From positions 1-36,330 of the forward strand of contig RBNJ01000223.1 in the NCBI GenBank assembly GCA_003990765.1: DNA of 36,330 nucleotides, written 5' to 3'. Source of the stretch: Jimgerdemannia flammicorona (lineage: Eukaryota). The position numbers and the translations under genes are program-made. Under the pieces are notes generated by a model. The model did no database searches, was not told where the DNA came from, and saw only the letters and a program-made list of their open reading frames with translations. Below, piece after piece: positions 11,686 to 36,330 of this stretch (positions are counted from its first letter, which is position 1; each line of letters opens with the position of its first letter).

Positions 11686-13693
11686 TGTAAGAGGGTTGCT
11701 TTTTAGAGTAACTGTTACATAGTTCTGGAAGAGTTTTCTGGAAGTTCTAGATATTCTGGAAGACTGTTTTCTTATGGTCAAGATCAATTTCATATGGAGT
11801 ACATCCTCTACACTTATTGATTTCAAGATCAGATTGACGTCTCAACCTAAGTTCTCTTTTGGACTAGTTCTGGATATTTAGGATTTTCTGTATTTCAGGA
11901 AGTTCAAGAAACTAAGACCAGTTTAGTTGAATTGGTGTATTGCTGCAGACAATACCCAATTAGGAAATTTCGTGACAGGGTTAGGAGTGGGACCTAATGG
12001 GGAGTAGATTTACTTAAGGGTGGTTTGTGGGTTATTTGAATAGATTTATTTGCTATTCATGATATTGCTATACTAGGAGTAGTTGTGTGAAGAGATATTG
12101 TGGGGAAGTATTCAGGAATGTTCTTGTGTGTTTGAGTCTGAGATTCTGAGTTCTGGGGGAGGGGGTATTTATACTAGTGAGGGGCTATCTGGACTATGCT
12201 AGATATGGATGTAGCACTAAGTGCTTTGCTGAGTTGGAATGCAGTCACATAGTACAAGTGTGATCTGACATGTCAAGAGATCATCTGACTGCTGAGTCAG
12301 TTCACAGTCACATCGTATAAAGCTAATCTAACTATACTATGACTGCTAGGCTATTTATGGGTTTAGGTGCTGTCTGGATAGTCCTCAATGACATCACCAT
12401 TGATGACATCATCTCTGATGAAGTAGTCATCTAGAAAGAGTGGTTCGCAGATTACTTCTTCTTGTTCACTGAGGTAATAATACATTGGAACTTCGTCTCC
12501 ATCCCACAAGATGGTGTCATCTGTCTCATATGCTGGATAAGGTGTTGGTGGGTGAAGGAGGGGTACATCATCTTCACTTTCATCGGATTCGCTGTCTGCA
12601 TACCTTCTGTAGGTTACAGCACTATGAGTTGCGGGGTTATAGTAAGCTGGTGGCTGTGGTTCATGTTGCTCGTACTCAGGTGGTAGAGTGGTTGGTTCAA
12701 TCTTGAGGGTTGTCTGGAGGTACAGGTTATGTTCTCCAGTCTCTTCATTGTAGTTGAAGTAATTGGGAGTGTTATGAATTGTTATAAGTTCATCGGCAAG
12801 ATTGGCGGTGTGATCAGGGTTGGCAGAGATCCTTGGCTAGAGGTCATGTCGACATCAGAGAGATCATTGTCTTCTGCTTCATCTTCATCGAAGTAGATTA
12901 TATTATAGATGTTCTTCATGGTATATCCAACTTGGGGCATTTGCAGGATATGATCATTGGGGTGTGGGAAGGTTCTGTCTGTGGTTTCGACATACTCAAG
13001 GTACTTGTGGTTGAGTTCTTGTATCATGTCATCGATTTGGCCATAGGACAGGGTAGCAATCATTTCGCTGGTAGTGACTCAGAGGTAGGGAATAATGGTA
13101 CTGTACTCATAGAAGAGTTCTCGATATTTGCGGGTGATGAGCTTCTGGTGTTGAGACATCTGGGTAATATCTGTATCATGGTGGTGTTCGACCATGTCTT
13201 CCAGGAGGCAGCTGATCTGGTAGTAGCTTGAGATTTGTCTGATTCAGTAGGCCTTGCTAAGTATGTTCAGAGTATTCTATCAGGCTTCCATGAAGTAGAG
13301 GGGTGCTAGGCTATGGATATTCATAAGGGGCAGAGGGGGTGTGGCTCGGTTGACAATGGTATTTCAAATATCAGCACGAATATAGGTATAGATCTCAGTG
13401 GTCATGTTTGTATGTTTGGAAGTTGTAGTTGTTATTTGTTTTGGTTCTCTGATTTGACGTATCTCGGTGCTCAGTATATATGCATTTGGTCCTGATTGGT
13501 AAGATTCTGTTTGTGTAGATCTTGTATTCTGTGACTTTATATTGACTCAGCTTTGTGTGCTGTAACTTTGGTTTGACTCAGCTTCATGATCAAGCAGGTG
13601 ATTTCCAGATTTGTTCAGATGTCATATGTGATTTCAGTGGCTTGTTCAGAGGGTGATGTGTAATTTCGGTAGCTTGGAGGTTGTGCACTTACA
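11686..13693 (-). repeat. 3' LTR of element A (2008 bp)
   Basis: Direct repeat of 19999-22061 with a 55-bp deletion near 12770; TG...CA termini. Confidence 0.95.
12363..13405 (-). pseudogene. LTR-encoded accessory ORF of element A, 3' LTR copy, frameshifted by the 55-bp deletion
   Basis: Homologous to 20676-21773; includes track ORF 12782-13063. Confidence 0.7.
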
Positions 13694-13905: not shown

Positions 13906-16900
13906 CTAGTTATTCAAGGAATCATATTCCTAAACTAGGTCAGTAGCATTCTAGAGATTGGTCTTGAGTTCCCAGGTTGCATCATAGATTGGGTAACCTT
14001 TCTATTTGACAAGGTACTCAGGATGGTTCTTGTTGCCACGTTTGTTGAGGATTTGTTCAACTTCATACTCTTCTTGGTCATTAATAATGACAGGTGCAGG
14101 TGGTTTGGTGGTCCGGTTTGGAAATAGCTCATCATCATTCTCATTATATTGCTTGAGACGTTGGATATAAAAGACTGGGTAAATCTTAATGGTGTCTGGT
14201 AGTACCAGTTTGTAGGAGGTAGGAGAGACTTGTGTAATGACTTCAAATGGTCCAATGAACTTGCTGTTCAGCTTTGTAGATGGTCTGTGCTTGAGGTTGT
14301 CAACTTGATATCCTCTGATGTCTAGTAGAACTTTTTCTCCAATATCAAAGGTTTCTTCTTGGCGGTATTGATTAACATACTGTGACTGTTGTTCTTGAGC
14401 TCGTGATAAATTCTCAATGGCAATCTGGCTTAGATTGTGCATTTGGAGTAAGAATTCTTCAATAGCTTCGACTGTGGAGGGTTCCTCAGTGGTTCAGATA
14501 AGTGTCAAAGGGGTGTTTGGGTTTTGTCCAGTGTTGGCGAAGAATGGGGCCATTCCAAGAGAGGCTTGCTTGCTATTGTTATAGACAAACTCAACTATGG
14601 TGAGGTGTTCATACCAGTCATCTTATCTGTAGGAAATATAGTTCCTTAGCATTTATTCCAGAGTTCAGTTCATTCTTTCAGTTTGGCCATCGGTTTCAGG
14701 GTGAAAGGCTGTGGATAGTGCAAGTTTCATTCTAAGGTATACATGAAGGGCTTTCCAAAAATGGCTGGTGAATTTCAGATCTCAGTCACTAACAATAATC
14801 TTGGGAAGACCATGATAGCGGAAGATGTTGTCAAACAAGAGTGTGGCTATATCTGATGCTGTTGCAGTAGTGGTAGTAGGCACAAAGTGGGCTTGTTTGC
14901 TGAGATAGTTCACAAAGACAACAATTGCATCTTTCCCATTCTTGGTTTGGGATAGTTGTACAATGAAGTCTATAGAGATTTGTTCCCAATTCGTAGATAG
15001 TACTGGGATAGAGTGAAGTAAGCCAGGTTTTGCTAGTGTTGAGGACTTGTTTTGTTGGCAAGTATCACAGGAAGTGATATAGGTCTTGAGCTGATCTGCC
15101 ATGCGGGGCCAATAGAAGTTTCGGGAGATAACTTCATAACATTTATCAAATCCTAAATATCCAGCTGTAGGGGCATCATGACATTCGAATAGGATAGTCC
15201 TTCAGAGGTCTCAGTTGTTTGGGACATACAGTCTGTCCTTATAGTAGATAGCATTATCCTTCAGTTGGTATTGATGATACTGTGTATACTTATCTGCATT
15301 GTCACTATTCAGGATTTCTTGCAGTGCTTGAGCTTCCTTATCATTGACACATGCTGTGATAATTTGTTCCATGATGGAGTTTGTAACCAAGGTGAGAGTT
15401 TGGATAACCTCTTCGATTGGTGGTCTAGACATTGTATCAGCAACAATATTTTCCTTACCAGGGTGGTACTGGATTTTATAGTCAAAGTTGGTGAGGACTT
15501 TCATCTATCTGGCTTGCTTTCGAGAAAGAGTAGCCTGTGTCTTGATGTTGACTAATGACTTGTGGTCGGTCAATACAGTAAAGTGTACTCCTTCTAGGTA
15601 GGGTTGCCATTTAATCAGAGTGTCCACAATGGCTAGCATCTCCTTCTCGTGAGTTACATAGTTGATTTCAGCATCATTGAACTTATGGGAGTGATAGGCC
15701 ACAGGGTGTCCTTCTTGCATGAGTACTGCTCCAAGGGCTAGGTCAGAGGCATCAGTGGTAACTTTATATGGCAGTGTAGGGTTTGCCACTTGAAGTACTG
15801 GAGTGGTTATCAGGGCATCCTTTAGTGCTTGAAAGGTGGTATCTTACTCAGGTCCCCAAGTTACAAGATTGTTGAAGTCTTTTTCTTATTTTATGGTTCA
15901 GGGTTGTTCTTATTTCTTGTTATGCTTGGTCATTTGAGTGAGAGTGGTAGCAATTTTAGCAAAGTTGGCAACAAATCACCTGTAATAGTTTGCTAATCCC
16001 AGGAATGACTGCAGGTCTTTCAGCTTCTTGGGTCTGGGCCAATTATTGATTGCAGAAATTTTGCTGGGGTCTACTTTGATTCCATTTGGAGTAACAATGT
16101 GTCTAAGGAATTGAATTTCTTTCAGGAGAAATTCACACTTGCTGAGTTTTGCAAAGAGTCGGTTTTCTCAGAGTTTCAGTAGTACTAGTTCAAGGTGTTC
16201 AAGATGTTCCTCCAGGGTTTTGCTGAAGACTAGGATGTTATCAATGTAGACAACAATGAATTTGTCTAGGTATGGATGCAGAATGGTATTCATCAGTATC
16301 TGGAAGGTTGCTGGAGCATTAGTTAAGCCAAAGAGCATAACTAGGAACTCAAAGTGTCCATAGCGAGTTCGGAAGACTGTCTTGTAGATGTCTTCTTTCA
16401 TGGCAATTTGCTAGTAACCATTTTGCAGATCAAAGGAGCTCATGAATTATGGGTTAGTAAGTCTATCGAATATTTCATCGATCCTTAGTAGTGGGCAATA
16501 GTTCTTGATGGTCTGTTCATTGAGATCATGGTAGTCAATACACATTCACAGGTCTCCTCCTTTCTTGACAACAAAGAGGACTGGTGCACCATAAGGTAAT
16601 ATGCTGGGTCTGATGAATCCTTGTTCTAGGAGTTCATCAATTTCCTTCTTGAGTATATTAATTTCTCTCAGAGACATGTGGTAGATTGACTTGAAGGCTG
16701 GTTTGGCATCTGGGATAGTCTTGATAGCATGGTCTACTACTCATTTGAGAGGTAGGCCTTTTGGGAGCTTCTTTAGAAATATGTCCTGGAATTTCTGGAG
16801 TAGTGGTCTGACATGGCTGTCAACTTTGGAAAAATCTTCTTCAGAGTTCTCAGGTTCTCCTTTGGATGGACAGATGGAGATGGCGAAGAGAGTGCATTTC

Positions 16901-19998: not shown

Positions 19999-22061
19999 TG
20001 TAAGAGGGTTGCTTTTTAGGGTAACTATTATGTAGTTCTGGAAGGGTTTTCTGGAAGTTCTAGATATTCTGGAAGACCATTTTCTTATGGTCAAGATCAA
20101 TTTCATATGGAGTATGTCCTCTACACTTGTTGATTTCAAGATCAGGTTGACATCTTAACCTAAGTCCTCTTTTGGACTAGTTCTAGATGTTCAGGATTTT
20201 CCGTATTTCAGGAAGTTCGAGAAACTAAGACCAGCTTAGTTGAATCAGTGTATTGCTGCAGACAATACCCAATTAGGAAATTTCGTGATGGAGTTAGGAG
20301 TGGGACCTAATGGGGAGTGGATTTACTTAAGGGTAGTTTGTGGGTTATTTGAATAGATTTATTCGCTATTCATGATATTGCTATACTAGGAGTAGTTGTA
20401 TAAAGAGATATTGTGGAGAAGTATTCAGGAATGTTCTTATGTGTTTGAGTCTGAGATTCTGAGTTCTGGGGGAGGGGGTATTTATACTAATAAGGGGCTA
20501 TCTGGACTATATTAGATATGGATGTAGCACTAAGTGCTTTGCTGAGTCAGAATGCAGTCACATAGTACAAGTATGATCTGACATGTCAAGAGATTGTCTG
20601 ACTGCTGAGTCAGTTCACAGTCACGTTATACAAAGCTAATCTAACTATACTATGACTGCTAGGCTATTTATGAGTTTAGGTGCTGTCTGGATAGTCCTCG
20701 ATGACATCACCATCAATGACATCATCTCTGATGAAGTAGTCATCTAGGAAGAGTGGTTTGTGGATTACTTCTCCTTGTTTGCTAAGGTAATAATATATTG
20801 GAACTTCATCTCCATCCCACAAGATGGCGTCATCTGTCTCATATGCTGGGTAAGGTGTTGGTGGGTGAAGGAGGGATGCATCATCTTCACTTTCATCAGA
20901 TTCACTGTCTGCATACCTTCTGTAGGTTACAGTACTATGAGTCACAGAGTTATAGTAAGCTGGTGGCTGTGGTTCATATCACTCGTACTCAGGTAGTAGA
21001 GTGGTTGGTTCAATCTCGAGGGTTGTCTAGAGATATAGGTTGTATTCTCCAGTCTCTTCATTGTAGTTGAAGTAATCAGAGGTGAATGCAGGTTGGTATT
21101 CATGCCAGTGGTCATTGTCCCAATAAGTCTCGTATGCTATTATAAATTGTTATAAGTTCATCAGCAAGGTTGGCGGTATGATCAGGGTTGGCAGAGATCC
21201 TTGGCTAGAGGTCATGTCAGCATCAGAGGGATCATTTTCTTCTGCTTTATCTTCATCGAAGTGGATTATATTGTAGATGTCCTTCATGGTATATCCAACT
21301 TGGGGCATTTGCAGGATATGATCATTGGGGTATGGGAAGGTTCTGTCTGTAGTTTCGACATACTTGAGGTACTTGTGGTTGAGTTCTTATATTATATCAT
21401 CGATTTGGCTATAGGACAGGGTAGCAACCATTTTGCTGGTAGTGACTCAGAGGCGGGGAATAATGGTACTGTACTTGTAGAAGAGTTCTCAATGTTTGTG
21501 GGTGATGAGCTTCTGGTGTTGAGATATCTGGGTAATGTCTGTATCATGGTGGTGTTCGACCATATCTTCCAGGAGGTGGCCGATCTGGTAGTAGCTTGAG
21601 ATTTGTCCAATTCAGTGGGCCTCACTAAGTATGTTCAGAGTATTCCATTGGGCTTCCACAAAGTAGAGGGGTGCTAGGCTATGGATATTCATAAGGGGCA
21701 GAGGGGGTGTGGCTCGGTTGACAATGACATTCCAAATGTCAGTGCGGATATGGGTATAGATCTCAGTAGTCATATTTGTGTGTTTGGAAGTTGTAGTTAT
21801 TGTTTGTTTTGGTTCTCTGATTCGACGTGTCTCGGTGCTCAGTATATATGCATTTGGTCCTGATTGGTAAGATTCCATTTGTATAGATCTTGTGTTCTGT
21901 GACTTCGTATTGACTCAGCTTTGTGTGCTGTGACTTTGGTTTGACTCAGCTTCGTGATCAAGCAGGTGATTTCCAGATTTGTTCAGATGTCGTGTGTGAT
22001 TTCAGTGGCTTGTTCAGAGGGTGATATGTAATTTCGGTGGCTTGGAGGTTGTGTGCTTATA
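19999..22061 (-). repeat. 5' LTR of element A (2063 bp)
   Basis: Direct repeat of 11686-13693; terminal CA mutated to TA; followed by GGCCA. Confidence 0.95.
20676..21773 (-). pseudogene. LTR-encoded accessory ORF of element A, ~365 codons, unknown function
   Basis: Track ORFs 21612-21878 and 20676-20945 share a frame. At least one internal TGA is CGA in the other LTR, and the other stops fit C>T changes. The ATG at 21773 follows a TATATA motif and an A/C-rich leader. Confidence 0.75.
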
Positions 22062-22909: not shown

Positions 22910-23716
22910 TGTAATAACTCTCACTTCTACCCCTCTCTTATCCTTAGAATAATTAGGGAAGTAGACTATTACTTAGAGACTTAGTATACAATATATACCA
23001 AGAAGCCTTCAGTTTGAGGAAGCACTTGCTTATAAGTAAGTATAGTGGCAGTGCCTTATCTTTCAAAGGTCTTTCTTAGATTTGCCTTCTATTTCAAAGG
23101 TCTTTCTCTTATGCCCTATTTCGAGGGTCTTGTTCTTTGCTATACACAGACTGAATTCGTCTTGGAATTCAGGTTCAATGGGTTTACTTAAGTCTTTGGG
23201 GATTTATATACTGGTCTCAGTTCTGGCAGAAGTTAGCTAGACTTCTGGAGTTTAGTCAGAAACACTAGAGTCACTTAGATGTCATTACTAAGACTCAGGG
23301 GAATGTGTGTGTGTGGGGGAGACTTGATTCTTATATCAAGGACTGAACTAAAACTACTTTATTTCGGATGGAAACTGGGGGGTATTTATACAAGTTGGTC
23401 CATGATTTCTGACTAAGTATGAGTGACTAATTTGGTAACTATAATGAGGTTTGTGATCATGACCTTTGTTAGGTGATTTTTGGTAAAGAATATCTTTGTG
23501 ATCAGGACCTCAATTACTAGGCAATGATCAGCAGCTATGGCAACTGTTGCTGCAGTGCCAGTTGTCAGGGATAAGCTGGATATCATTTTCCACGTCATTT
23601 CACATTGTTTATTCATTATTCATATGCCGCACTCGATCGTATGATGATATCATCGCCAGGTCATGTGATCATTTGTCTCATCGCATCCTATCTGTTTGCT
23701 CATTCATTCTATTACA
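22910..23716 (-). repeat. 3' LTR of element B
   Basis: Direct repeat of 31266-32079. Confidence 0.95.
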
Positions 23717-23729
23717 TCCTTCCCCCCTT
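23717..23729 (-). promoter_or_regulatory. Polypurine tract of element B
   Basis: AAGGGGGGAAGGA abuts the LTR. Confidence 0.9.
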
Positions 23730-24630
23730 AAAAATCAATATCCTTGTTGATTGAGAAATTGAGAACCAGGGGAGAGAAAGGTGGGGAATCCTCCTCAGGA
23801 TTGTTACCCTCTTTTGCAGGGGGAGTGGTTACTGGTGGTTTGCTATCCAGAATGGAGAAGTCAATGAGGTCTGCAAATAGTTCTTGTATTGGAATAGGTG
23901 CTGGTATAGGGGTTCTCTATCTGATGTAGTTGGGGCCATCCAAGTAGAGCTCTTGATCTTCATACCTGGGAATATCCATTTGGATAGGTGGTCCTTCAAA
24001 GAGGACAGAGAGACCTTGGAGCCATTGGTCAGGGTTGTTATTCAGGAGAGGGCTCCAGTAGGGTTCACAGTCAGTAGACTTGAGGGCAATTCAGGAGTTG
24101 GCTTCTTGAGCGACCTTGACTTCTAGGGCATCGACCTCAGGGAAAGAGAGGTTCTGGAAGTCCTTCAGTTGTATATAGTTGAGGTTGAGGATCATGAAGG
24201 ATGTATGGCATATGATTTGATGGACCTTCTTGGCAAGTCTTTGCTCGTGCCTATCTAGGTGGGTTCAATCAGAGACTTGGTCCATGGGCAGGTCCCTTAC
24301 TCATTGGAGGAGTTGATGGCCAATCTCATATTCATGCCAGATCTCTAGGCGGCTGGTGGCAAGATAGGCTCTTTCAATGACTTCATAGTGGTTGAGGACA
24401 TAGTGTCCTAGGTCCTGGCTGGAGAGGTTAAGGGCCTCTGAGCAGTGGTTCCTTCCTTGGATGGCAACCTGGATGTGTCCAAAGAGGCGGTCAACCTGGC
24501 TTAGGAGGGGCTGGCTACAGCAGGCAGTTTGGCAGCAGATGGCAGGTATTCTTGTCTTGTCTTTTCTTTGTAAGGAAAGGAGGATGAGAGTTGCAGGGTA
24601 TTCTTGCCTTGGGTATTTATACTTATTCAT
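23728..24630 (-). pseudogene. Accessory ORF of element B between pol and the PPT, ~270-300 codons
   Basis: One frame with 4 internal stops (3 TGA, 1 TAG) ends with TAA at the PPT. GTATAAATACCC at 24611-24622 suggests the true start is just downstream of 24610. Confidence 0.8.
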
Positions 24631-25197: not shown

Positions 25198-28100
25198 TTA
25201 GAGCTGTAGTTCCTTCCTTTGCTGGGGGGTGAGTATTTCCATATAGTCCTGGAGGGCTTGGCATGTATTCTTTAGGGCTTCTTCTTTTTCCCAGGTAGCA
25301 TCATGGGTGGGGTAACCCTTCCACTTGATCAGGAAAAAGTGCTTGACTGTTTTGGGATATTTGCGGACCTTGTGGTCAAGTACTTCCTCAATTTCGAATT
25401 TCTCATGATCATTGATCCTAATTGGGGGTGGTGGTGGAACTGTACACTCAGGGAATGGGTTCTCATGGTAGTCTACCAATTGGCTGATATGGAATACTGG
25501 GTGTACTCGAATATTGTAGGGAAGTTGCAACTTATAGTTGACTTCGCTAATTTTTTCCACGATCTTGTATGGTCTAATTCTTCTAGTACAGAGTTTCTTG
25601 GCTGATTGTTGTGCCAGGGTGTCTGGGTGGAGGTGGTCTGTTCTAAGCATGACCTTATCACCAATATTATAGGAGGCTTCTCTTCATTTCAAGTTCGCAT
25701 ACTTGGTCTAGTAGTCTTGTGCTTCTATGAGAGCATCTCTTGTCATTCGGGTAAGATCAGAAATGGTCTCAGCCAGATCTTAGGCTGCTGGGACTGCTGA
25801 TTTCGTGGTAGTACTTGGGGTCCTTGGGTGTTGACCATGGTTTAGGAAGAATGGAGTCTTCTTTGTAGAGGTTTGCTGACTGTTGTTGTAGGCAAACTCA
25901 GCATGAGCTAGGTACTTGTCCCAATTGTTTTGCTTGTAACAGCAGAAGATGCTAAGCATCTGTTTGAGAGTCCTGTTTGTTCACTTGGTTTGACTGTCAG
26001 TCTGAGGGTGGTAGGCAGTAGAGAACTTCAGCTTGGTTCTATGGAGGGAGAAAAATGCCTTCCAGAAGTTGCTTGTGAACTTGGCGTCTTGGTCAGATAC
26101 AATAGTACTAGGCATGCCATGTAGCCTGAATACTTGATTGAGGAAAATCTTGGCAATCTCTAGTACTGTAGCAGTAGTTTTGGTGGGTACAAAATAGGCT
26201 TGTTTACTTAGGCGGTCCACGAATACCATGATGGCATCCTATCCTGCCTTGGTCTTGGGGAGTTGGACAATGAAGTCTATTGCAATCTGGTCCCAATTGT
26301 GACTCGGGATAGGCAAGGGTTGCAGGAGTCCTACTAGTAGCTTGTTACCACTTTTGAACCTTTGGCACATCTCACATGAGGCCACAAAGTCTTTGATATC
26401 CCTGGTCATATTTGGCCAGTAGAACTCTCTTGAGAGGAGGTTGTAGGTCTTTTCAAAACCAAAGTGTCCTGCTGCAGGAGTATCATGGAGTTCCTGCATG
26501 ATCTTGAGTCGCAGAGTATCATTGTTGGGTACAACCACTCTGTTATGGTCCCTGTAGATAAGTCCATCATGGTAGGTGAATCTCTTGGCCATTTGCCTCA
26601 TGGGTTCTGGAACCTCAGCCTCTGGGTCTTGGTAGAATTGAAGGAAATTCATCAGGGGGCTGTCTTGCTGGTAGCCGTCCTTGATCATTTAGGTAAGGTC
26701 TCCAATTACTTTGACCATGAAGACAAGTTTGTCTTCCATGTATCTGGAGAAACCATCAGTCACATGGTTGGTTTTGCCTGGGATATACTTGATTTCCATA
26801 TCAAAGTTGGCAATGATTTCTATCCAGCAGGCTTGTCTATGGGTCAGCATAGGCTGTGTGTGAATATACTGCAGTGCATGGTGATCAGTGTAGGCTACAA
26901 ATGGCTGTCCTAGGAGAAAATGGCACCATTCCTGGAGTGCAGTGACAATAGCCAGGAGTTCCTTCTCATAGGTGGTATACCGGGTCTCAGCTGGCTTGAG
27001 CTTTTGGGAAAGGTAGGCCACTGGGTGGTCTTCTTGACTGAGTACTGCTCTAATAGCAATATCGAGGCATTGGTGGTCAGAGTGAATAGTCTGGTGGGAT
27101 CAGGTACAATTAGCACTGGGGCCTTAGTAAGGAGTCTCTTGAGGTGGTCCATTGCTAGGGTGTATTTGGGGGTCCATTCAGCTTTGATGTTCACTCCTTT
27201 GCAGGCCAGACTGGTTAATGGAGCTGCAATAGCAGAGTATCCTTGGATAAACCTTCGGTAATAACCGGCAATACCCAGAAAGCACTAGAGTAGCTTGAGA
27301 GTAGTAGGGATAGGGATATCCTTAAGGGCTGATACTTTTCGGTGGTCCACATTGATATCTTCAGCAGAGATGATGTGTCCTAGGTATTCAATCTGGTCTT
27401 GGTAGAACTTACATTTGCTCATCTTGGCATAGAGCTGGTGTTCTCACAGGAGGGTCAGTACTTGTCTGAGATGGGTGTAGTGTAGCTCTACTGTCTTGCT
27501 GTAGATTAGTATATCATCAATATACACAAGAACACAGATGTTGAGGAGTGGTCCAAAGATATCATTCATCAGATACTGGAATGTTGCTGGTGCATTGGTC
27601 AATCCAAAAGGCATGACTTAGAACTGGTAGTGTCCAAACTATGTTCGGAAAGCTGTCTTCTCAATGTCCTTCTCATCAATGAGAATCTAGTGGTAGCCAT
27701 TTCGCAAATCCAGTAGAGAAAAGGTCTTGGCCTTGAAGATTTGGTGTAGCAACTCATCAATCCTGAGCAAGGCATATTGATTCTTGATAGTGATCTTATT
27801 GAGGGCTCTGTAGTCAATACACATTTGCAGAGAGCCATCCTTCTTCTTGAAAAATAGAATGGGGGCTCCAAATGGAGAGTGGCTGGGTTCAATATATCCT
27901 TGGGCCAGTAATTTGGTCAATTCATCCTTGAGAGTCTTGAGTTCAGGTTGAGCCAGTTGATAGATACTCTTGTATGGGGGTTCAGATTCTAGAATAAGAT
28001 CAATTCCATGTTGGATTTGGCACTTAGGTGGGAGTCCTTGAGGATCTTGGAATACATCTTGGAATTCTTCAAACAGTTCTTGAGCTTCTGTTGGAATTGG

Positions 28101-31100
28101 ACTACTTATAGCTTCAGTGACTTCTTGTACTGTACAGATGAAGTAAGTGTTTCCCTTTTTTCGAGATAGTCTCTTTATTTGAATGGTAGAGATGATTTCG
28201 ATTCCTTGGTAGTTGGTACCTTCCTGGGGTGTCAGAGTGATCTTTCTGCCTTCATGGGTCAGGTTAACCTCATTGGTTCTCCAGTTGATGTCTGGGTTGT
28301 GCTGGGTCAACCAGGCTTTTCCTAAGATAATGTCTTGTCCTGGGAGGTCTACAATGCTGAAGTCCAACTTCTCTTGATATTTGCCAATCTTGAGCAAAAG
28401 GTCTTCACAGATCTTAGTTAATGGTGCAGTCTTTCCATCACCAAAGGTAACACTTCTTTTCTCAATAGTTGGTCTACTTCGGGCTCCTATCCTCTTGGCA
28501 GTCTTGGTGCTGATGTAGTTTCCAGTAGCACTACTATCAAGCAAAACATTGACATTTTGTCTGTGGACTTGGCCTGTGAACTTGATGCAATTATCCTCCT
28601 TCTTGATGGTGTTGAGCTCTTCATCCTCAGTGTTGTCCCATTTGCTATCAGTCTCCTCAAAGTCAGTTTTTCCCCATCCTTCACAAGGAGGGTTGTCTTG
28701 TTTGGGTTCCTCAGTCTGTTGAGCTTAGCGCTTCTTGGATTGAATTTTGAAAACTTTGGAGAGGTATGCATGGTATTCACCAATATGTTCTATACAGTAC
28801 ATTTGAATAGAATGAGGGCATCGTCCACATGATGCATAACCATCTGCAATTCTCTTGTACCAGTTTTCATCATCTTCCTTCATGGTAGTGACCTTTTGAC
28901 TGAGAGGTTTGTTGGTGGATCCAAACCCTTTCTTGCCACGATCTGTCTGGGAGAGTTCAGGGACTTCTTCAATGGTGAGATCTTGACGGATTTCTTCAAT
29001 GATTGCTTGGGCAATTCTTTGGCCTACTTTGACTTCAAATGATATGTCTCAAAAATTTCGTAAGATGACATGGATTTCACCAGTAAATCCTTGGTCAACT
29101 ACTCCTCCTCCTAGCCCAATATTGAACTCTTTGGCTAGGCTGCTTTGCTCAGCAAGGCGGATGTATGTACCTCTGGGGGCTTATATTGCAATTTCTGTTT
29201 GCACTATAGTATTGATACTTGGTGGGATGGTGAGGTCTTGGCGGCTATAGAGGTCATATCCAGTATCAGTTGGGTGGGCCTTAATGGAGATGGTAGCCTT
29301 GTATCATATCTTCTATACTTTGATGACATTCTTGGGATTCTTCTTTCCTGGACCTTCTCCAATAACAGTAATGTTCTGGTTACTGGGTTCACCTGTTCTA
29401 TTCTTCTTCTCAGGGCATCTGAATGAGATGTGTCCTGCCTTCTTGCAGATGAAACACAATCCCTTTTTATGGAGTTGCCTCTTTTCATCCTCAGTAGGAG
29501 GTCTGGGTCCTCTGGGGTTTCACTGGTTCCTTTGATCATTCTGTTGATCATATCTTTGATCATTTCTCCTGGTGGGGTTTCTCCTATCTTGGTTATCCTT
29601 CTTGTGTTCTTGATTCCATGGAGCTTGTACAGCTAGGATTTCGCAGGCTCTTCTTTGTACTTGGGCAAAGCACCATGAGTAGTGGGGACATCCTTGGGGA
29701 AGACCTTGTTCCTTGATCTTCTGGGTGAGCCAGTCTGATAGGGCTACAAAGAGATGGTTGGCTTTGGTACCATTGATGGCCAAATTGTTTCCTGATAGGT
29801 AAGTCTAACAGTTTTGAGATAGGCATCCATTCTGGTGGCAAAAGTCTCTAGATCCTCTTCGCCATTCTTGTGGAACTTCATCTGGGACAGTTTGTTCCAT
29901 GTTTCTTATATGTAAGCTACATTTCAGAATTTGGTCAGTAGCAAGGCCTTGAGTCCTGGGCCTGCTTCATAGTCATCTCAATCTGGTCTATTGTTGCTGG
30001 GTACTTGTCTATTGACTTAAGGGCAGCTTCTCAGGTTACTGGGTGTTGTTCCAAGGTTCACCAGAATTCAGCTGCTATTCCAGTGAAGAATGTGGCTACT
30101 GTTTCTACTTGTGCTGCTGATGTGGCAAACAGCTGGTGAAGGATGCTGTTCTGGTTGTTGGTGAGCATTCCTATAGGTACTCAGTTGTCATTCCATTGGT
30201 TTACTCAGTAGCCTGTGTCAACTACATTAATGAAGTTTTTAATGTCACTATTTTTTCCACTGAATGTTGGGATTCGCAAAGTCTTGGTTAGTTTGTTCTG
30301 TTCAGCAATCTGTCCTACTATCCCTGCTAGTGCTGCTAGCTGGGTGGTCAGTGCTGCAATATTGATATCTACCATTGTGCTGACTATTGGTGGTGGGCCT
30401 GTTGGAGTAGATTCTCCTGAAGATTGTTCTGCTTAGTGGGGTTGTGGTGCTGTATGACTTGGAGTTACTTGGTTCCCGGATATTAAGTCAAAGAGTCCTG
30501 TGAGAGAGGGTAAACCAAACCTCTGTATAGGTGGCTAGGTTGGTTCTGGGGTCTGATCTTCTTAACCTGTGGTTCCTTGGTAAATTCCTAGGCCTACTGT
30601 TCCTTGTTGGCTATCATCAGACTGGTAACCTATAGAGTCTTCATCTGACTCCCTTCCCTGATGAGATAGTGCATCCTCATACTGACTAGGTCCTTCAAAG
30701 AGGATATCAGTCTCTGGCTGGGTTGATGGGCCTGCTCCTTATTCAGCAGTAGGGGATGGATGGCCTGCTTGCTCATTCTCGTACCTCATTATGGCAGAGG
30801 CATAGTATACAACTAGCCTGTAGTAGAGGGAGGTCTTGGTTGGTGTATGATGATACCTGTCAGAGGCAATCCACTTGGCAGCTGCTTCTCTTATAGCAGG
30901 GGGTGTAATATAATCTAAAAAATCCTGAGTGGCTGCAGCAGTAGATTCTGGGGTCCTAGTGGTTCCAATGTGTCCTCAGAGGAGTTTGTAGAACCTATGG
31001 TGGCTAACAATATTCCTAAGTCCTGGGTGGTATGTCCTAAAGGCCTGGTATAGATCCTTGTAAGCCTGGTCAATTACAAGCTGGTGGGTCCTTGGGTCTA

Positions 31101-31265: not shown

Positions 31266-32079
31266 TGTAATAACTCTCACTTCTACCCCTCTCTTATCCT
31301 TAGAATAATTAGGGAAGTAGACTATTACTTAGGGACTTAGTATACAATGTATACCAAGAAGCCTTCAGTTTGAGGAAGTGCTCACTTTAAGTAATTGTAG
31401 TGGCAGTGCCTTATCTTTCAAAGGTCTTTCTCTGGGTTGCCTTCTATTTCAAAGGTCTTTCTCTTGTGCCCTATTTCGAGGGTCTCGTTCTTTGGTGTGC
31501 ACAGACTGAATTTGCCTTGGAATTCAGATTCAATGGGTTAACTTAAGTCTTTGGGGATTTATATACCGGTCTCAGTTCTGGCAGAAGTTAGCTAGGCTTC
31601 TGGAGTTTAGTCAGAAACACTAGAGTCACTTAGATATCATTACTAAGACTCAGGGGAATGTGTGTGTGTGGGGGGAGACTTGATTCTTATATCAAGGACT
31701 GAACTAAAACTGCTTTATTTCGGATGGAAAACTGGGGGGTATTTATACAAGTTGGTCCATGATTTCTGACTAAGTATGAGTGACTAATTTGGTAACTATA
31801 ATGAGGTTTGTGATCGCAACCTTTGTCAGGTGGGTTTTGATAAAGAATATCTTTATGATCAGGACCTCAATTACTAGGCAATGATCAGTAGCTGTGGCAA
31901 CTGTTGCTGCAGTATCAGTTGTCAGGGATAAGCTAAATATCATTTTCCGCATCATTCGTTTGCATTGTTTAACACTCATTATTCATATGCCATGCTTGAT
32001 TGTATGATGATGTCATTGCCGGGTCATGTGATCGTTTGTCTTGTCATGTCCCATCTATTTGCTCGTTCATTCTATTATA
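31266..32079 (-). repeat. 5' LTR of element B
   Basis: Direct repeat of 22910-23716; terminal CA mutated to TA. Confidence 0.95.
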
Positions 32080-35000
32080 CCAGACCCCCACCAAGGATGA
32101 GAAGAAGCAGCTCCATGAAAAGGGATTGTGCTTTATCTGCAAGAAGGCAGGACACATCTCATTCAGATGCCCTGAGAAGAAGAACAAAACAGGCAAACCC
32201 AGTAACCAGAACATTACTATTATTGGAGAAGGTCCAGGAAAGAAAAACCCTGAGAATGTCATCAAAATACAGAAGATATGGTACAAGGCTACTATTCCCA
32301 CTAAGGCTCACCCAATCAATGCTGGATATGATCTCTACAGCAGCCAAGACCTCACTATTCCACCAAGTACCAATGCTATAGTGCAAACAGGAATTACAAT
32401 GCAAGCTTCCAAAGGAACATACATCTGCCTTGCTGAGTGAAGCAGCCTAGCCAAAGAGTTCAACATTAGACTAGGAGGAGGAGTAGTTGACCAAGGATTT
32501 ACTGGCAAAATCCATATCATCTTACAAAATTTTGGAAACATATCATTTGAAGTCAAAACAGGCCAAAGGATTGCCCAAGCAATCATTGAAGAAATCCGTC
32601 AAGATCTCACCATTGAAGAAGTTCCCGATCTCTCCCAGACAGATCATGGTAAGAAAGGGTTTGGATCTACCAACAAACCTCCTAGTCAAAAGGTCACTAC
32701 CATGAAATAAGATGATGAAAACTGATATAAGAGAATTGCAGATAGTTATGCACCATGTGGATGATGCCCTCATTCTATTTGAATGTACTGTATGGAACAT
32801 GTTGGTGAATACCATGCATGCCTCTCCAAAGTTTTCAAAATTCAATCTAAGAAATGCCAAGCCCAACAGACTGAGGAACCCAAACAAAACAACCCTTCTT
32901 GTGAAGGATGGGGAGAAACTGATTTCGAGGAGACTGACAGCAATTGGGACAATAATGAAGATGAAGAGCTCAATACCATCAAGAAGGAGGACAGTTGCAT
33001 CAAGTTCACAGGCCAAGTCCACAGATAAAATGTCAATATCTTGCTTGATAGTGGTGCTACTGGAAACTATATCAGCACTAAGACAGTCAATAGGATTGGA
33101 GCCCGAAGCAGACCAACTACCAAGAAAAGAAGTGTTACCTTTAGTGATAGAAAAACTGCACCATTGACCAAGATCTGCGAAGATCTTGGCTCAAGATTGG
33201 CAAATATCAAGAGAAGTTAGACTTCAGCATTGTAGACCTCTCAGGACAAGATATTATCTTAGAAAAAGCCTGGTTGACCCAGTACAATCCAGACATCAAC
33301 TGGAGAACCAACAAGGTTAACCTGACCCATGAAGACAGAAAGATCACCCTGATACCACAGGAAGGTACAAACCACCAAGGAATCGAAATCATCTCTGCCA
33401 TTCAAATGAAGAGACTCTCTCGAAAAAAGGGAAACACCTACTTCATCTGTATAGTATAAGAAGTCACTGAAGCTACAAGTAGCCCAATTCCAACAGAAGC
33501 TCAAGAACTGTTTGAAGAATTCCAAAATATATTCCAAGACCCCCAAGGACTTCCACCTAAGTGCCAAATCCAACATGGAATTGATCTCATTTCAGGATCT
33601 GAACCCCCATACAAGAGTATCTACCAACTGGCCCAACCTGAGCTCAAGACCCTCAAGGATGAATTGACCAAACTACTGGCCCAAGGATATATTGAACCCA
33701 GCTGCTCTCCATTTGGAGCCCCCATTCTATTTGTCAAAAAGAAGAATGGCTCTCTGTGAATGTGTTTTGACTACAGAGCCCTCAATAAGATCACTATCAA
33801 GAACCAGTATGCCTTACCTAGGATTGATGAGTTGCTATACTAAATCTTTAAGGCCAAGACCTTTTCTCTACTGGATTTGTAAAATGGCTACCACCAGATT
33901 CTCATTGATGAGAAGGACATTGAGAATACAGCTTTCTGAACATAGTTTGGGCACTACCCATTCCAAGTCATGCCTTTTGGATTGACCAATACACCAGCAA
34001 CATTCCAGTATCTGATGAATGACATCTTTGGACCACTTCTCAAAATCTGTATTCTTGTGTATATTGATGATATACTAATCTACAGTGAGACAGTAGAGCT
34101 ACACTACACCTACCTCAGACAGGTACTGACCCTTCTGCGAGAACACCAGCTCTATGCCAAGATGAGCAAGTTTAAGTTCTATCAAGACTAGATTGAGTAC
34201 TTAGGATACATCATCTCTGCTGAAGGTATCAATGTGGACCCCCAAAAGGTATCAGTCCTTAAGGATATCCTTATCCCTACTACCCTTAAGCTACTCCAGC
34301 ACTTTCTGGATATTGCCAGTTATTACTGAAGGTTTATCTAAGGATACTCTGCTATTGCAGCCCCACTGACCAGCCTGGCCCACAAAGGAGTGAACATCAA
34401 AACTGAATGGACCCCCAAATGCATCCTGACTAGGGGCCATCTCAAGAGACTCCTTACTGAGGCCCCAGTGCTAATTGCACCTGACTCTATCAGACCATTC
34501 ACTCTGATCATAGATGCCTCTGACATTGCCATTGGGGCAGTGCTCAGCCAAGAAGACTGCCCAGTGGCCTACCTTTCTCAAAAGCTCAAGCCAGGGGAAA
34601 CCCAGTATACTACCTATGAGAAGGAACTCCTGGCTATTGTCACTGCACTTTAGGAATAGTACCATTTCCTCCTAGGACAGCCATTTGTGGCCTACACTGA
34701 TCACTATGCATTGCAGTATATTCATACACAGCTTATGCTGACCCACAGACAAGCCCGCTGGATAGAAATCATTGCCAACTTTGATATGGAAATCAAGTAT
34801 ATTTCAGGCAAAACCAACTGTATGGCTGATGGTTTCTCCAGGTACATGGAAGATGAACTTGTTTTCATGATTGAAGTAATTGAAGATCTTACCCAAATGA
34901 TCAAGGATGGCTATCAGCAAGACAGCCCTCTGACAAATTTCCTTCAATTCTGCCAAGACCCAGAGGCCAAGATTCCAGAACCCATGAGGTAAATGGCCAA

Positions 35001-36321
35001 GAGATTCACCTATCATGATGGACTTATCTACAGGGACCACAACAGAGTAGTTGTATCCAACAATGATACTCTGTGGCTCAAGATCATGCAGGAACTCCAT
35101 GATACTCCTGCAGCAGGACATTTTGGTTTCAAAAAAACCTACAACCTCCTCTCAAGAGAGTTCTACTGGCCAAAGATAACCAAGGACATCAAAGACTTTG
35201 TGACCTCATATGAGATGTGCCAGAGATTTAAAAGTGGTAATAAGCTACCAGCAGGACTCCTGCAACCCTTGCCTATTCTGAGTTACAATTGGGACCAGAT
35301 TGCAATGGACTTTATTGTCCAACTCCCCAAGATCAAGACAAGATGGGATGCCATTGTGGTATTCATGGACCGCCTAAGTAAACAAGCCCATTTTGCACCC
35401 AACAAGACCACCACTACAGCACCAGAGATTGCTGAGATTTTCCTCAATTAAGTATTCAGGCTACATAGCATGCCTAGTACTATTGTATCTGACCAAGATG
35501 CCAAGTTCACAAGCAACTTCTGGAAGGTATTTTTCTCTCTCCATGGAACCAAGCTGAAGTTCTCTACTGCCTACTACCCTCAGACTGATGGTCAAACCGA
35601 GCATACCAACAGAACTCTCAAGCAGATGCTTAGCATCTTCTGCTATTACAAATTAAATAATTGGGACAAGTACCTAGCCTATACTGAGTTTGCCTACAAC
35701 AACAGTCAGTAAACCTCCACGAAGAAGACCCCATTTTTCTTAAACCACAGTCAACACCCAAGGACCCCAAGTACTACTGTGAAATCAGTAGTCCCAGCAG
35801 CCCAAGATCTGGCTGAGACTATTTCTGACCTTACCTGAATGACAAGAGATGCTCTCATAGAAGCACAAGACTACCAGACCAAGTATGCAAACTTGAAGCA
35901 AAGAGAAGCCTCCTACAATATTGGTGACATGGTCATGCTTGGAACAGACCACCTCTACCCAGATACCCTGGCACAACAACTAGCTAAGAAACTCCATGCT
36001 AGAAGAATTAGACTATACAAGATCATGGAAAAGATCAGCAAAGTCAACTACAAGTTACAACTTCCCCACAATATCCAAGTGCACCCAGTGTTCCATATCA
36101 GCCAATTGGTGGACTTCTATGAGAACCCATTCCTCAAGCATACAATTCCATCACTACCCTTAATCAGGATCAATAATCATGAGAAATTTGAAATTAAGAA
36201 AGTACTTGACCACAAGGTCTGCAAATATCCCAAAACAGTCAAGCACTTTTTCCTGATCAAGTGGAAGGGTTACCCCACCCATGATGCTACCTGGAAAAAA
36301 GAAGAAGTCCTGAAGAATACA
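32080..36321 (+). mobile_element. Element C: internal gag-end to chromodomain segment of the B family, opposite orientation, no LTRs in the window
   Basis: Reverse complement of 25264-29506; CFICKKAGHISFRC, dUTPase, LLDSGATGNY, VYIDD, DASD, integrase, chromodomain. Confidence 0.93.
32255..32676 (+). pseudogene. dut: dUTPase domain in element C
   Basis: NAGYDLYS, GGGVVDQGFTG, IAQAII, KKGFGST. Confidence 0.92.
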
Positions 36322-36330
36322 TTTTTTTTT
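36322..36330 (-). repeat. Poly-T run interrupting the chromodomain of C; probable tail of a minus-strand LINE
   Basis: Homology to B stops abruptly at 36321 and is replaced by T9 running to the window edge. Confidence 0.5.

What the first reader, a model, noticed from the sequence alone, without database searches (positions are those of the whole stretch)
23728..24630. Unrecognised accessory gene family shared by three different Gypsy retrotransposons
Reading through deamination stops gives three homologous proteins, each on the sense strand downstream of integrase. B: LNLSSQDLGHYVLNHY...IWHEYEIGHQLL...HEQRLAKKVHQII.HTSFMILNLNYIQLKDFQNLSFPEVDALE...YWSPLL...FEGPPIQ. D (7531-8212): LNLSTDDPYHFILYHY...I*QKYEIRNLLY...LRVAKKIYQIFRYIS*SISNLEYTKVSDFKKLSAYHINILE...FWNSIL...FQGSSIQ. 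A (in its LTRs, consensus of both copies): SYYQIGHLL...HQKLITRKYRELFYEYSTIIPRL*VTTSEMIATLSYGQIDDM. B and D align without gaps over ~140 aa; A matches a ~70-aa core more distantly. The elements have unrelated LTRs, so retention suggests a selected function. I see no signal peptide or transmembrane segment, so it is not env-like. In A and B a likely helical core is followed by an acidic/Pro-rich tail; a transactivator or anti-silencing role is a guess only.
Basis: partly seen in the sequence, partly recalled or inferred. Interest (0 to 1): 0.9.

Follow-up and report, generated by a model that had tools for sequence, protein, structure and literature searches.

The report
Accessory gene in chromodomain Gypsy retrotransposons
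Three decayed Gypsy-type retrotransposons in this window carry versions of one unnamed, selection-constrained extra gene placed after integrase, in one element inside the long terminal repeat itself, and what the protein does is still unknown.

Summary
B (24549->23728, minus strand), D (8111->7531, split by a LINE and resuming at 1608->1429) and A (13405->12782 and 21773->21150, inside both 2-kb LTRs) encode homologous proteins downstream of integrase. Public protein sets hold only nine relatives, all unnamed metagenome proteins. Several are intact (247-342 aa), including an A-type one. There is no Pfam, PDB-sequence or fold match. AlphaFold confidence is low (pLDDT 43-48).

Purifying selection is clear. 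B versus an intact metagenome copy (L001) gives dN/dS of about 0.17. pN/pS is 0.28 in frame and 1.2-1.4 in shifted frames. Outside the ORF and the stop/polypurine-tract junction the DNA does not align.

A and B are distinct families (pol 36-41% identical). They share the order gag-dUTPase-PR-RT-RH-IN-chromodomain and the primer-binding site, so the gene is most simply inherited within one lineage.

A TATA box lies 72-80 nt upstream of the start codon in B, L001 and A. This suggests an own promoter and a subgenomic mRNA. The protein is soluble and acidic, with a helical core and an acidic tail carrying short motifs.

A regulatory or adaptor role is inferred only. I class it as a new family within the known class of sense additional ORFs. 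Interest is moderate.

The parts
23728..24549 (-). Element B accessory ORF: 273 codons plus stop. The start codon is decayed to ATA. There are 4 internal stops.
   Evidence: It is 62% identical to intact P0002. dN/dS against L001 is 0.17.
24614..24621 (-). TATAAATA, 72 nt upstream of B's start codon. It is the only TATA[AT]A in the 300 nt upstream. Candidate internal promoter.
   Evidence: 3.3% of shuffles place one at -90..-60.
23717..23730 (-). ORF stop codon TAA running into the polypurine tract, directly before the 3' LTR start (TGTAATAG...).
   Evidence: The same arrangement occurs in L001. This junction is the only non-ORF stretch that aligns between L001 and B.
22910..23716 (-). Element B 3' LTR.
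   Evidence: 91.9% identical to the 5' LTR.
31266..32079 (-). Element B 5' LTR, followed by the primer-binding site (ACTTGGTAGCAGTGG).
25240..25398 (-). Element B chromodomain at the integrase C-terminus. About 600-700 nt of non-coding spacer separate it from the accessory ORF.
   Evidence: Pfam Chromo E 1.6e-11.
28914..29297 (-). Element B dUTPase domain, between gag and protease.
   Evidence: Pfam dUTPase E 7.4e-28.
7531..8111 (-). Element D accessory ORF, first part. The start is decayed to ATA. There are 10 stops in 194 codons.
   Evidence: tblastn against B gives E 9e-27. D-type intact relatives are P0004, P0009 and P0005.
1429..1608 (-). Element D accessory ORF, last 60 codons. It resumes in frame beyond the LINE and ends ...NILL, like P0005.
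   Evidence: (protein 5).
1625..7515 (+). LINE (endonuclease plus reverse transcriptase, poly-A tail) inserted into D's ORF. The 15-bp target duplication lies at 1610-1624 and 7516-7530.
   Evidence: Pfam RVT_1 E 1.9e-24. Exo_endo_phos E 0.0011, below its curated cut-off. Sequence.
12782..13405 (-). Element A accessory ORF copy inside the 3' LTR (207 codons plus stop, 5 internal stops).
   Evidence: The intact A-type relative is P0010.
21150..21773 (-). Element A accessory ORF copy inside the 5' LTR (4 internal stops).
11686..13693 (-). Element A 3' LTR (2.0 kb). The polypurine tract lies just upstream at about 13696-13707, that is upstream of the ORF. The 5-bp target duplication TGGCC is at 11681-11685.
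19999..22061 (-). Element A 5' LTR. The target duplication TGGCC is at 22062-22066. The primer-binding site follows at 19998 downwards.
13475..13480 (-). TATATA 75 nt upstream of A's ORF start in the 3' LTR. The same site in the 5' LTR is at 21843-21848.
12045..12173 (-). Second TATA (12168-12173) and AATAAA (12045-12050) downstream of the ORF in A's 3' LTR. The 5' LTR equivalents are 20481-20486 and 20358-20363. These are the presumed LTR promoter and poly-A signal, which would put the ORF in U3.
   Evidence: The U3/R assignment is inferred.
13921..14067 (-). Element A chromodomain.
   Evidence: Pfam Chromo E 4.6e-10.
32080..36330 (+). B', a second B-family copy in inverted orientation (89.8% identical to B 29506-25263). 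It runs off the window before its accessory ORF.

Best explanation
This is a genuine protein-coding accessory gene, a sense additional ORF between pol and the 3' LTR. It belongs to one lineage of chromodomain-bearing, dUTPase-bearing Ty3/Gypsy retrotransposons of an unidentified soil eukaryote, probably a fungus and possibly a basidiomycete.

Shown here:
- The family exists. Intact 247-342 aa members occur elsewhere.
- It evolves under purifying selection.
- It sits directly before the polypurine tract in B-type elements and inside U3 of a 2-kb LTR in A-type elements.
- All copies in this window are dead through transition-type decay.

Inferred, about 50%: the gene is transcribed from its own TATA-box promoter about 75 nt upstream of the start codon, giving a short subgenomic mRNA that is polyadenylated in the 3' LTR. 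In A-type elements this would make every LTR a self-contained expression unit.

Inferred, about 25% for a transactivator-like role and about 20% for a host-factor adaptor or anti-silencing role: the protein is a soluble acidic regulator. A folded helical core would recognise a partner. The acidic C-terminal tail carries repeated DLIxF and P-x-(V/I)-L-N-F motifs and would recruit host machinery. The nearest functional analogy is the foamy-virus Tas gene with its internal promoter.

The confidence given (0.55) is for the whole layered statement. For 'genuine selected accessory gene' alone it is about 0.9.
For: Family and coding status:
- Intact ORFs were found in independent metagenome records: P0003 (342 aa), P0004 and P0009 (247 aa), the L001 ORF (291 aa), and P0010 (128 aa, A-type).
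- B versus L001 over 265 codons gives pN 0.237, pS 0.666 and dN/dS 0.17 (core 0.10, tail 0.43). Differences by codon position are 76/59/128.
- In the core, pN/pS is 0.28 in frame against 1.20 and 1.44 in the two shifted frames.
- As a neutral control, the two LTR copies of A's ORF differ at 23/11/19 positions by codon position.
- Between L001 and the window, only the ORF (69% over 627 nt) and the stop/polypurine-tract junction align.

Context:
- Pfam shows integrase and chromodomain upstream in A and B, and an integrase zinc finger upstream in D.
- The polypurine tract and LTR start follow the stop codon in B and L001.
- A has a 5-bp target duplication and 2.0-kb LTRs that contain the ORF.

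Promoter:
- TATA[AT]A lies at -72 (B), -80 (L001) and -75 (both A LTRs) although these upstream regions do not align.
- It is the only such site in the upstream 280-300 nt of B, L001 and A's 5' LTR.
- Each has about a 3% chance under shuffling.
- A's LTR has a second TATA and an AATAAA downstream of the ORF.

Protein properties:
- No hydrophobic segment. pI is 4.6-4.9 in the four longest relatives tested.
- Net charge of the tail is -8 to -21. The tail motifs recur.
- Predicted secondary structure is mostly helical.

Decay:
- 155 of 156 differences between A's LTRs are transitions. CpG observed/expected is 0.0-0.24.
- Soil-metagenome contigs read G where B has the A of two of its TGA stops.
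Against: - There is no RNA evidence. No listed holder of this DNA is on record as RNA.
- The -90..-60 window for the TATA test was chosen after I had seen the sites. In D the TATA-like sites lie at -111, -142 and -191, in AT-rich decayed DNA.
- Structure models are of low confidence (pLDDT 42.9 and 47.8), so the 'helical core' is tentative and no fold assignment is possible.
- No shared sequence word above chance links the candidate internal promoter region with LTR U3. A Tas-like autoregulatory circuit might predict such a link.
- Only nine database relatives exist, and their genomic flanks, apart from L001, could not be seen.
- Both LTR copies of A share stops at codons 54 and 109. P0010 has Arg at both positions. 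Either that copy transposed with an already broken ORF, so the gene is dispensable in cis, or both sites decayed in parallel at CpG.
- The A-type link rests on E-values of 3.5e-6 to 1.5e-3, not on overwhelming similarity.
Confidence: 0.55

Rival explanations
1. The protein is a host-defence antagonist or adaptor, comparable in logic to lentiviral Vif, Vpr or Vpx. Its tail motifs would dock onto host trafficking, SUMO, autophagy or ubiquitin machinery. This would protect element RNA or cDNA, or counter heterochromatin- or methylation-based silencing, rather than activate transcription.
For: The tail is made of short, repeated hydrophobic motifs in an acidic context that are conserved across B- and D-types. 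The tail evolves faster than the core (dN/dS 0.43 against 0.10), as expected for a host-interaction surface. The elements live under heavy deamination-type genome defence.
Against: No partner is known. The motif readings (clathrin-box, SUMO-interaction or LIR-like) are recalled resemblances and were not tested. Acidic and hydrophobic tails fit activation domains equally well.
Confidence: 0.2
2. The protein is a structural or chaperone factor of the particle. It would be a second Gag-like or nucleic-acid chaperone protein that aids packaging, reverse transcription or nuclear import.
For: D-type proteins have an arginine-rich N-terminus (net +4 in the first 45 residues). The literature has suggested chaperone roles for some sense additional ORFs (PMC7264820, passages seen).
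Against: The basic N-terminus is not conserved in the B- and A-types. The protein is strongly acidic overall. The family HMM finds nothing in the gag regions of A or B (noise only, E>=1.1). There is no zinc knuckle.
Confidence: 0.1
3. The ORF is a transduced host-gene fragment carried passively, with no role for the element.
For: Transduction of host sequence by LTR retrotransposons is known (PMC7264820, abstract).
Against: It is present in at least three divergent element families (pol 36-41% identical) at the same position. It is under purifying selection. No longer or host-type homologue was found: 0 of 3488 'longer' candidates scored, and only 6 proteins reached E<=0.001 among 1.84 billion representatives. 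According to the review, transduced ORFs occur in one or a few copies only.
Confidence: 0.05
4. The stretch is not translated. Its conservation would reflect a cis-acting RNA or DNA element, such as an extended polypurine tract or U3 region, or an enhancer.
For: It abuts the polypurine tract and, in A, lies in U3, where regulatory DNA is expected.
Against: Third-position excess and the frame-specific pN/pS. Open frames of 247-342 codons persist across 40-60% protein divergence. No Rfam family matches anywhere in the window.
Confidence: 0.03

Closest known systems
Sense additional ORFs between pol and the 3' LTR (aORFs-3S) of plant Ty3/Gypsy elements, e.g. env-like ORFs of Athila/Tat and barley Bagy2 (Vicient & Casacuberta 2020, PMC7264820; abstract and passages seen)
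   Same: Position and orientation (sense, between pol and the 3' LTR). Presence in most or all members of whole families rather than in single copies. Function unknown.
   Different: No transmembrane segment or signal peptide. No sequence similarity to any Pfam family. The carriers are dUTPase-bearing chromoviruses, apparently non-plant. Expression is more likely from an internal TATA promoter than by the splicing reported for Bagy2.
[quoted passage not shown] 2010 (PMC2864245, Figure 3 legend; passages seen)
   Same: Fungal-type Gypsy or chromovirus elements, some with dUTPase, that carry an extra ORF of unknown function.
   Different: The figure is not held and the structural tables are old .DOC supplements that I could not read. 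One search covered the one supplementary file held as text and found 0 occurrences. I cannot tell whether their ORF is this family. The main text passages retrieved do not discuss it.
Foamy-virus Tas (Bel1) gene with its internal promoter (PMC8670036, PMC13220597, PMC4929722; search-listing abstracts only)
   Same: A 3'-proximal accessory gene downstream of the structural and enzymatic genes with its own promoter (here inferred from a TATA box). The acidic C-terminal region has an activation-domain-like composition.
   Different: No sequence or fold similarity was detected. DNA binding and transactivation are untested. No shared promoter or LTR motif was found. The host element is a retrotransposon without env.
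ORF inside the LTR U3 region, as in mouse mammary tumour virus sag (recalled from general knowledge; no paper read)
   Same: In element A the whole ORF lies within the LTR and is therefore duplicated at both ends of the integrated element.
   Different: Sag is recalled as a membrane glycoprotein. This protein has no hydrophobic segment. There is no sequence relationship. In the sister families (B and the L001 contig) the same gene lies outside the LTR.
Additional ORFs of bdelloid rotifer LTR retrotransposons (PMC5408684; only the start of the abstract seen in search listings)
   Same: Additional ORFs shared between divergent retroelement families.
   Different: Different host group and, as far as the abstract goes, different proteins.

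Membership tests
Sense additional ORF between pol and the 3' LTR (aORF-3S class) | ORF on the gag-pol strand, located between the end of pol and the 3' LTR | tested here: met
   B: ORF 24549->23728 lies between the chromodomain (ends 25240) and the polypurine tract/3' LTR (23716). D lies 3' of the integrase zinc finger. In L001 the ORF ends at the polypurine tract/LTR start. In A the ORF is 3' of pol but inside the LTR.
Sense additional ORF between pol and the 3' LTR (aORF-3S class) | Conserved across copies and families rather than present in a single transduced copy | tested here: met
   Three element families in the window plus nine database relatives. Soil-metagenome contigs cover the ORF region of B in 4 of 4 runs laid.
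Env-like ORFs of Ty3/Gypsy elements | Signal peptide and/or transmembrane segment | tested here: not met
   Maximum 19-residue Kyte-Doolittle mean is 0.57-1.05 in 5 of 5 proteins. No dedicated signal-peptide predictor was available.
Chromoviruses (chromodomain-bearing Ty3/Gypsy), as carriers | Chromodomain at the C-terminus of integrase | tested here: met
   Pfam Chromo E 1.6e-11 (B) and 4.6e-10 (A). It was not found in D, which is heavily decayed.
Foamy-virus Tas/Bel1-type transactivator | Sequence or structural homology to Tas/Bel proteins | tested here: not met
   0 Pfam families at E<=10 for 3 family members. 0 PDB sequences at E<=10 for the family profile. The best Foldseek hit has E 0.5 on a low-confidence model.
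Foamy-virus Tas/Bel1-type transactivator | Own internal promoter upstream of the accessory gene | tested here: inconclusive
   TATA[AT]A at -72, -80 and -75 in three lineages, about 3% chance each. There are no RNA data.
Foamy-virus Tas/Bel1-type transactivator | DNA binding to the LTR and internal promoter, and transcriptional activation | not testable with these tools
   Only indirect evidence exists. The acidic tail composition fits. No shared word above chance links the internal promoter region and U3.
LTR-encoded (U3) retroviral genes such as MMTV sag | ORF contained within U3 of the LTR | tested here: inconclusive
   The ORF is certainly within A's LTR. Its placement in U3 rests on a second TATA and an AATAAA downstream, not on a mapped transcription start.
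Gag duplicate | Similarity to the element's own gag | tested here: not met
   The family HMM gives no hit better than E 1.1 outside the accessory ORFs among 487 tiles, which include the gag regions of A and B.

The most novel reading that the evidence does not exclude
The family is a retrovirus-style regulatory gene of fungal-type chromoviruses with its own promoter. In A-type elements the promoter, the ORF and a downstream poly-A signal all lie inside the 2-kb LTR. Every LTR, including solo LTRs left after recombination, would then be an autonomous gene producing a trans-acting factor. That factor could be a transactivator or an anti-silencing adaptor that serves the whole element family. This would be the first accessory regulator with an internal promoter described for LTR retrotransposons outside animals and plants. 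It would also be a route by which dead elements keep feeding live ones.
Probability: 0.15. Interest if true: 0.8.

Novelty: new member of a known kind. Interest (0 to 1): 0.5.

Why it matters
LTR retrotransposons are usually treated as gag-pol machines. Conserved accessory genes show that some lineages have retrovirus-like regulatory complexity.

Here a protein family with no known domain has been kept under purifying selection across element families whose pol genes are only 36-41% identical. It also has a conserved promoter-like signal. This gives a concrete, testable candidate for how a retrotransposon lineage manipulates its own expression or its host's defences.

The shift of the same gene from just outside the LTR (B and the L001 contig) to inside the LTR (A), through a change in polypurine-tract position, shows how LTRs can grow and acquire coding capacity.

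On the practical side, the family is invisible to Pfam-based annotation. Its members appear in protein databases as 'hypothetical proteins', and they should be recognised as transposon-derived.

Tried and rejected
- **Whole genome:** none is held for this window, so copy censuses and a search for intact copies in the host were impossible.
- **Earlier scan notes:** none by sequence or by place.
- **Pfam:** 0 families at E<=10 on P0001-P0003.
- **PDB sequences:** 0 at E<=10 for the family profile.
- **ESM Atlas:** best scores were 0.88 (P0003) and 0.86 (P0004), below the 0.9 level, so they are leads only. The P0004 neighbours were unnamed clusters with a few basidiomycete records, a weak hint on the host.
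- **AlphaFold2:** two runs, one on the full-length alignment of 9 sequences and one on the core alignment of 13. Mean pLDDT was 42.9 and 47.8.
- **Fused forms with pol:** the 'longer' search gave 0 of 3488 candidates. The tool calls this weak evidence.
- **Viral-contig scan:** 73 pattern matches, none confirmed.
- **Genome-contig scan:** the one locus, L002, from an archaeal MAG, is a pattern-only chance match. The family HMM gives E 0.66 and the surrounding frame reads like an unrelated protein. Rejected.
- **P0007:** it matched only B's tail through a repeated low-complexity stretch (E 4.6e-5, 3 stretches). I left it out of all alignments.
- **RNA evidence:** no RNA holder was listed.
- **Metagenome contigs:** the contigs laid are metagenome DNA contigs and cannot show starts, strands or splicing. 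The joints listed there are LTR-LTR joins or short low-depth skips, and I did not interpret them.
- **Shared response elements:** the longest shared words between the internal promoter region and LTR U3 were 7-9 nt. These were reached by 130-291 of 300 shuffles.
- **Rfam:** 0 families over the window.
- the 'D2' row was read out of frame, so its stop count is void.
- **Host identity:** not established.
Full report
**1. Map of the window**

All three Gypsy elements lie on the minus strand.

- **Element B.** It spans 22910-32079, with 807/814-nt LTRs that are 91.9% identical.
  - The internal region reads gag, dUTPase, protease, RT, RNase H, integrase (zinc finger, core, SH3) and chromodomain.
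  - I found no target-site duplication. The 5' end abuts B', an inverted second copy of the same family (32080-36330, 89.8% identical over 4245 nt) that leaves the window before its own accessory region.
- **Element A.** It spans 11686-22061, with 2.0-kb LTRs (92.2% identical) and a 5-bp target duplication, TGGCC.
  - It has the same domain order, including dUTPase and chromodomain.
  - A and B have nearly the same primer-binding site. Their pol proteins are only 36-41% identical. They are distinct families of one lineage.
- **Element D.** It lies at about 7531-10160 plus 1-1609, with GC near 32% and CpG observed/expected of 0.0.
  - Only an integrase zinc finger reaches Pfam significance, together with a weak integrase-core match to B.
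  - I saw no chromodomain.
- **LINE.** It occupies 1625-7515 on the plus strand and carries RVT_1 and a poly-A tail. It sits inside D and is flanked by a 15-bp duplication.

**2. The observation**

I refined the boundaries using intact relatives.

- B's ORF is 24549->23728. Its start codon reads ATA where relatives have Met. It has four internal stops.
- D's ORF begins at 8111, also with ATA, and has 10 stops in 194 codons. The LINE cuts it, and it resumes in the same frame at 1608->1429. It ends like relative P0005. The D2 row was out of frame through my slip and is void.
- A's ORF is 13405->12782 in the 3' LTR and 21773->21150 in the 5' LTR.
- B and D align without relative gaps: 33.7% identity over 172 aa, E 9e-27.
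- A is about 20% identical to the others.
  - hhalign of the B/D-type alignment against the two A copies gives E 0.0015 but probability 16.5%.
  - An HMM built only from B/D-type members was searched against 487 six-frame tiles of the window plus the database protein P0010. After the B and D tiles it ranked P0010 at E 3.5e-6 and the A LTR tiles at 5.8e-4, 0.039 and 0.15. Unrelated tiles began at E 1.1.
  - A also shares the start region, the acidic tail and a C-terminal L-x-x-N-L ending.
  - I accept A as a distant member.

**3. Relatives elsewhere**

- The word-indexed search found 2 proteins among 593 candidates.
- The exhaustive HMMER search of 1.84 billion representatives found 6 at E<=0.001, of which 3 were at E<=1e-30.
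- Cluster look-up added P0008 and P0009.
- A profile search added P0010, an intact A-type fragment that starts at the same Met and runs to its contig end.
- I dropped one of the six, P0007, because it matches only the low-complexity tail.
- None carries a name other than 'hypothetical protein'. All come from JGI/IMG or ENA metagenome sets on contigs of 0.9-4.8 kb.
- No fused, longer form was found.
- One metagenome contig, L001, could be fetched.
  - It holds an intact 291-codon ORF from ATG to TAA.
  - As in B, the stop codon runs straight into a polypurine tract followed by an LTR start, TGTAATA.
- Scans of viral and prokaryote collections gave nothing real.
- Laying contigs of four soil-metagenome runs on B showed many B-family fragments in all four runs. 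In run X1, 2454 contigs were laid.
  - The differences are dominated by the window having A or T where the contigs have G or C.
  - At two of B's TGA stops the contigs read G in place of A.
  - At two stops (one of them among those same two) the protein relatives have Trp.

**4. Is it coding and selected?**

- B versus L001 over 265 aligned codons: pS 0.666, pN 0.237, dN/dS 0.17. dS is near saturation, so the ratio is approximate.
- The core gives 0.10 and the tail 0.43. Differences fall 76/59/128 on codon positions 1/2/3.
- In the gap-free core, pN/pS is 0.28 in the annotated frame but 1.20 and 1.44 in the two shifted frames.
- The two LTR copies of A's ORF have diverged only since insertion. 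Their differences show no third-position excess (23/11/19), as expected for neutral decay.
- At the DNA level L001 matches the window only over the ORF and the 42-nt stop/polypurine-tract junction. The spacer upstream and the LTR downstream do not align.
- Open frames of 247-342 codons persist across proteins that are 39-56% identical.
- The stretch is therefore a protein-coding gene under purifying selection. All copies in this window are dead.

**5. Decay process**

- 155 of 156 differences between A's LTRs are transitions.
- 57 of 66 differences between B's LTRs are transitions.
- 396 of 429 differences between B and B' are transitions.
- CpG observed/expected is 0.0-0.24 in every element.

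**6. Anatomy that bears on expression**

- In B, about 600-700 nt of non-coding spacer separate the end of pol from the ORF.
- A TATA[AT]A hexamer lies 72 nt (B), 80 nt (L001) and 75 nt (both A LTRs) upstream of the start codon.
  - It is the only such hexamer in the upstream 280-300 nt of B, L001 and A's 5' LTR.
  - In shuffles of each upstream region, 2.8-4.4% have one in the -90..-60 window.
  - These upstream regions are otherwise not alignable, so three lineages agree independently.
  - I defined the window after seeing the data. D's sites lie elsewhere, in AT-rich DNA.
- In A the polypurine tract lies upstream of the ORF, so the ORF is part of the LTR (positions about 289-912 of 2008).
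  - Downstream in the same LTR there is a second TATA, and an AATAAA 123 nt after it.
  - This is the expected LTR promoter and poly-A signal, which would put the ORF in U3.
- My reading, which is inferred, is a short subgenomic mRNA from the internal TATA that is polyadenylated in the LTR. In A, each LTR would contain the complete unit.

**7. The protein**

- No hydrophobic segment. pI is 4.6-4.9 in the four longest relatives tested.
- The N-terminus is mildly basic in the B- and D-types.
- The tail has a net charge of -8 to -21 and carries one or two D-L-I-x-F motifs and a P-x-(V/I)-L-N-F motif.
- AlphaFold2 predicts several helices in the core, but with mean pLDDT of 42.9 and 47.8.
- There is no Pfam, PDB-sequence, Atlas or Foldseek relative.
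- It is not a gag duplicate.

**8. Mechanism**

- The acidic, hydrophobic-studded tail resembles activation domains or docking motifs. This is a resemblance recalled from general knowledge, not a test.
- Together with a 3'-proximal gene that has its own promoter, the closest functional analogy is foamy-virus Tas with its internal promoter (abstracts only).
- A simple test for words shared between the internal promoter region and U3 was negative.
- An adaptor or anti-silencing role fits the faster-evolving tail equally well.
- My estimates: genuine selected accessory gene 0.9; own promoter 0.5; transactivator-like role 0.25; host-factor adaptor 0.2; particle chaperone 0.1.

**9. Comparison with what is known, and novelty**

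- Sense additional ORFs between pol and the 3' LTR are an established class in plant elements (PMC7264820; abstract and passages).
- Novikova et al. list an 'add. ORF' of unknown function in their figure of fungal Gypsy structures, and they report dUTPase-bearing basidiomycete elements (PMC2864245; passages). Their figure and .DOC tables were not readable.
- Muszewska et al. do not discuss such ORFs in the passages retrieved (PMC3248453).
- Five text searches turned up no description of this protein family. Sequence cannot be searched in text, so prior description under another name is not excluded.
- I class it as a new member of a known kind. The LTR-embedded version in A and the promoter signal are the unusual features.

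**10. Limits**

- The host is unidentified. Soil and root metagenomes hold the family, and Atlas neighbours hint weakly at Basidiomycota.
- No genome and no RNA were available.
- The flanks of most relatives were not seen.
- The structure is unresolved.

Noticed in passing
window 12366-12782 (minus; 3' LTR of A) and 20560-21152 (5' LTR of A), approximate: Directly after A's ORF stop there is a further acidic, Tyr/Pro-rich reading frame. It has about 137 codons without a stop in the 3' LTR copy. In the 5' LTR copy it is in the same frame as the ORF and separated only by the TAA. A 55-nt indel between the LTR copies (near 12764-12771 against 21077-21139) shifts it in the 3' copy. The A-type protein may once have had, or may still have through read-through, a much longer acidic tail like that of P0003.
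   Followed up: partly
window 1625-7515 (+), duplications at 1610-1624 and 7516-7530: A full-length-looking LINE (endonuclease-like region, RVT_1, 31-nt poly-A) is inserted into D's accessory ORF with a 15-bp target duplication. Its sense strand is strongly G-rich (G 37%, C 14.5%). Related LINE fragments lie at about 10161-11685 and 22054-22909 (73-76% identity). Element A is inserted into one of them.
   Followed up: partly
window 22905-22909 and 32080-32084; B' at 32080-36330: Element B has no target-site duplication. Its 5' LTR abuts an inverted, 90% identical partial copy of the same family. This could be a rearrangement, recombination between copies, a nested insertion with loss, or an assembly join.
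   Followed up: no
A: 19984-19998; B: 31251-31265 (minus): A and B have LTRs that do not align, yet they share an almost identical primer-binding site (ACTTGGTAGCAG[C/T]GG) beginning right after the 5' LTR. The matching tRNA was not identified.
   Followed up: no
window about 24818-24839 (minus) and L001 about 12-36: One roughly 20-nt stretch of the pol-ORF spacer (CCCTAGACAAGGATGGCCAG in B) is conserved between B and L001, while the rest of the spacer is not alignable. Its function is unknown.
   Followed up: no
A ORF codons 54 and 109 in both LTR copies (about 13244-13246 and 13079-13081; 21612-21614 and 21447-21449): Both LTR copies carry TGA at the same two codons, where the intact relative P0010 has Arg. 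Either the element inserted with an already broken ORF, or both CpG-containing Arg codons decayed in parallel.
   Followed up: partly
window about 1330-1428 (minus): A tandem repeat of a roughly 36-nt unit, about 2.5 copies, follows D's ORF stop. No polypurine tract of 11 nt or more was found in the remaining 1.4 kb, so D's 3' LTR start was not located.
   Followed up: partly
whole window: The mutation spectrum is almost purely transitions (155 of 156 differences between A's LTRs). CpG observed/expected is 0.0-0.24 in every repeat. Differences occur in both CpA and CpG contexts. This indicates a strong deamination-type process acting on repeats in this genome.
   Followed up: partly
P0007 (database protein, 232 aa): An unrelated-looking repetitive protein with a hydrophobic N-terminus carries three copies of a stretch resembling B's C-terminal motif (acidic-S-P-P ... 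L-V-L-N). It is either a chance low-complexity match or a shared short motif.
   Followed up: no
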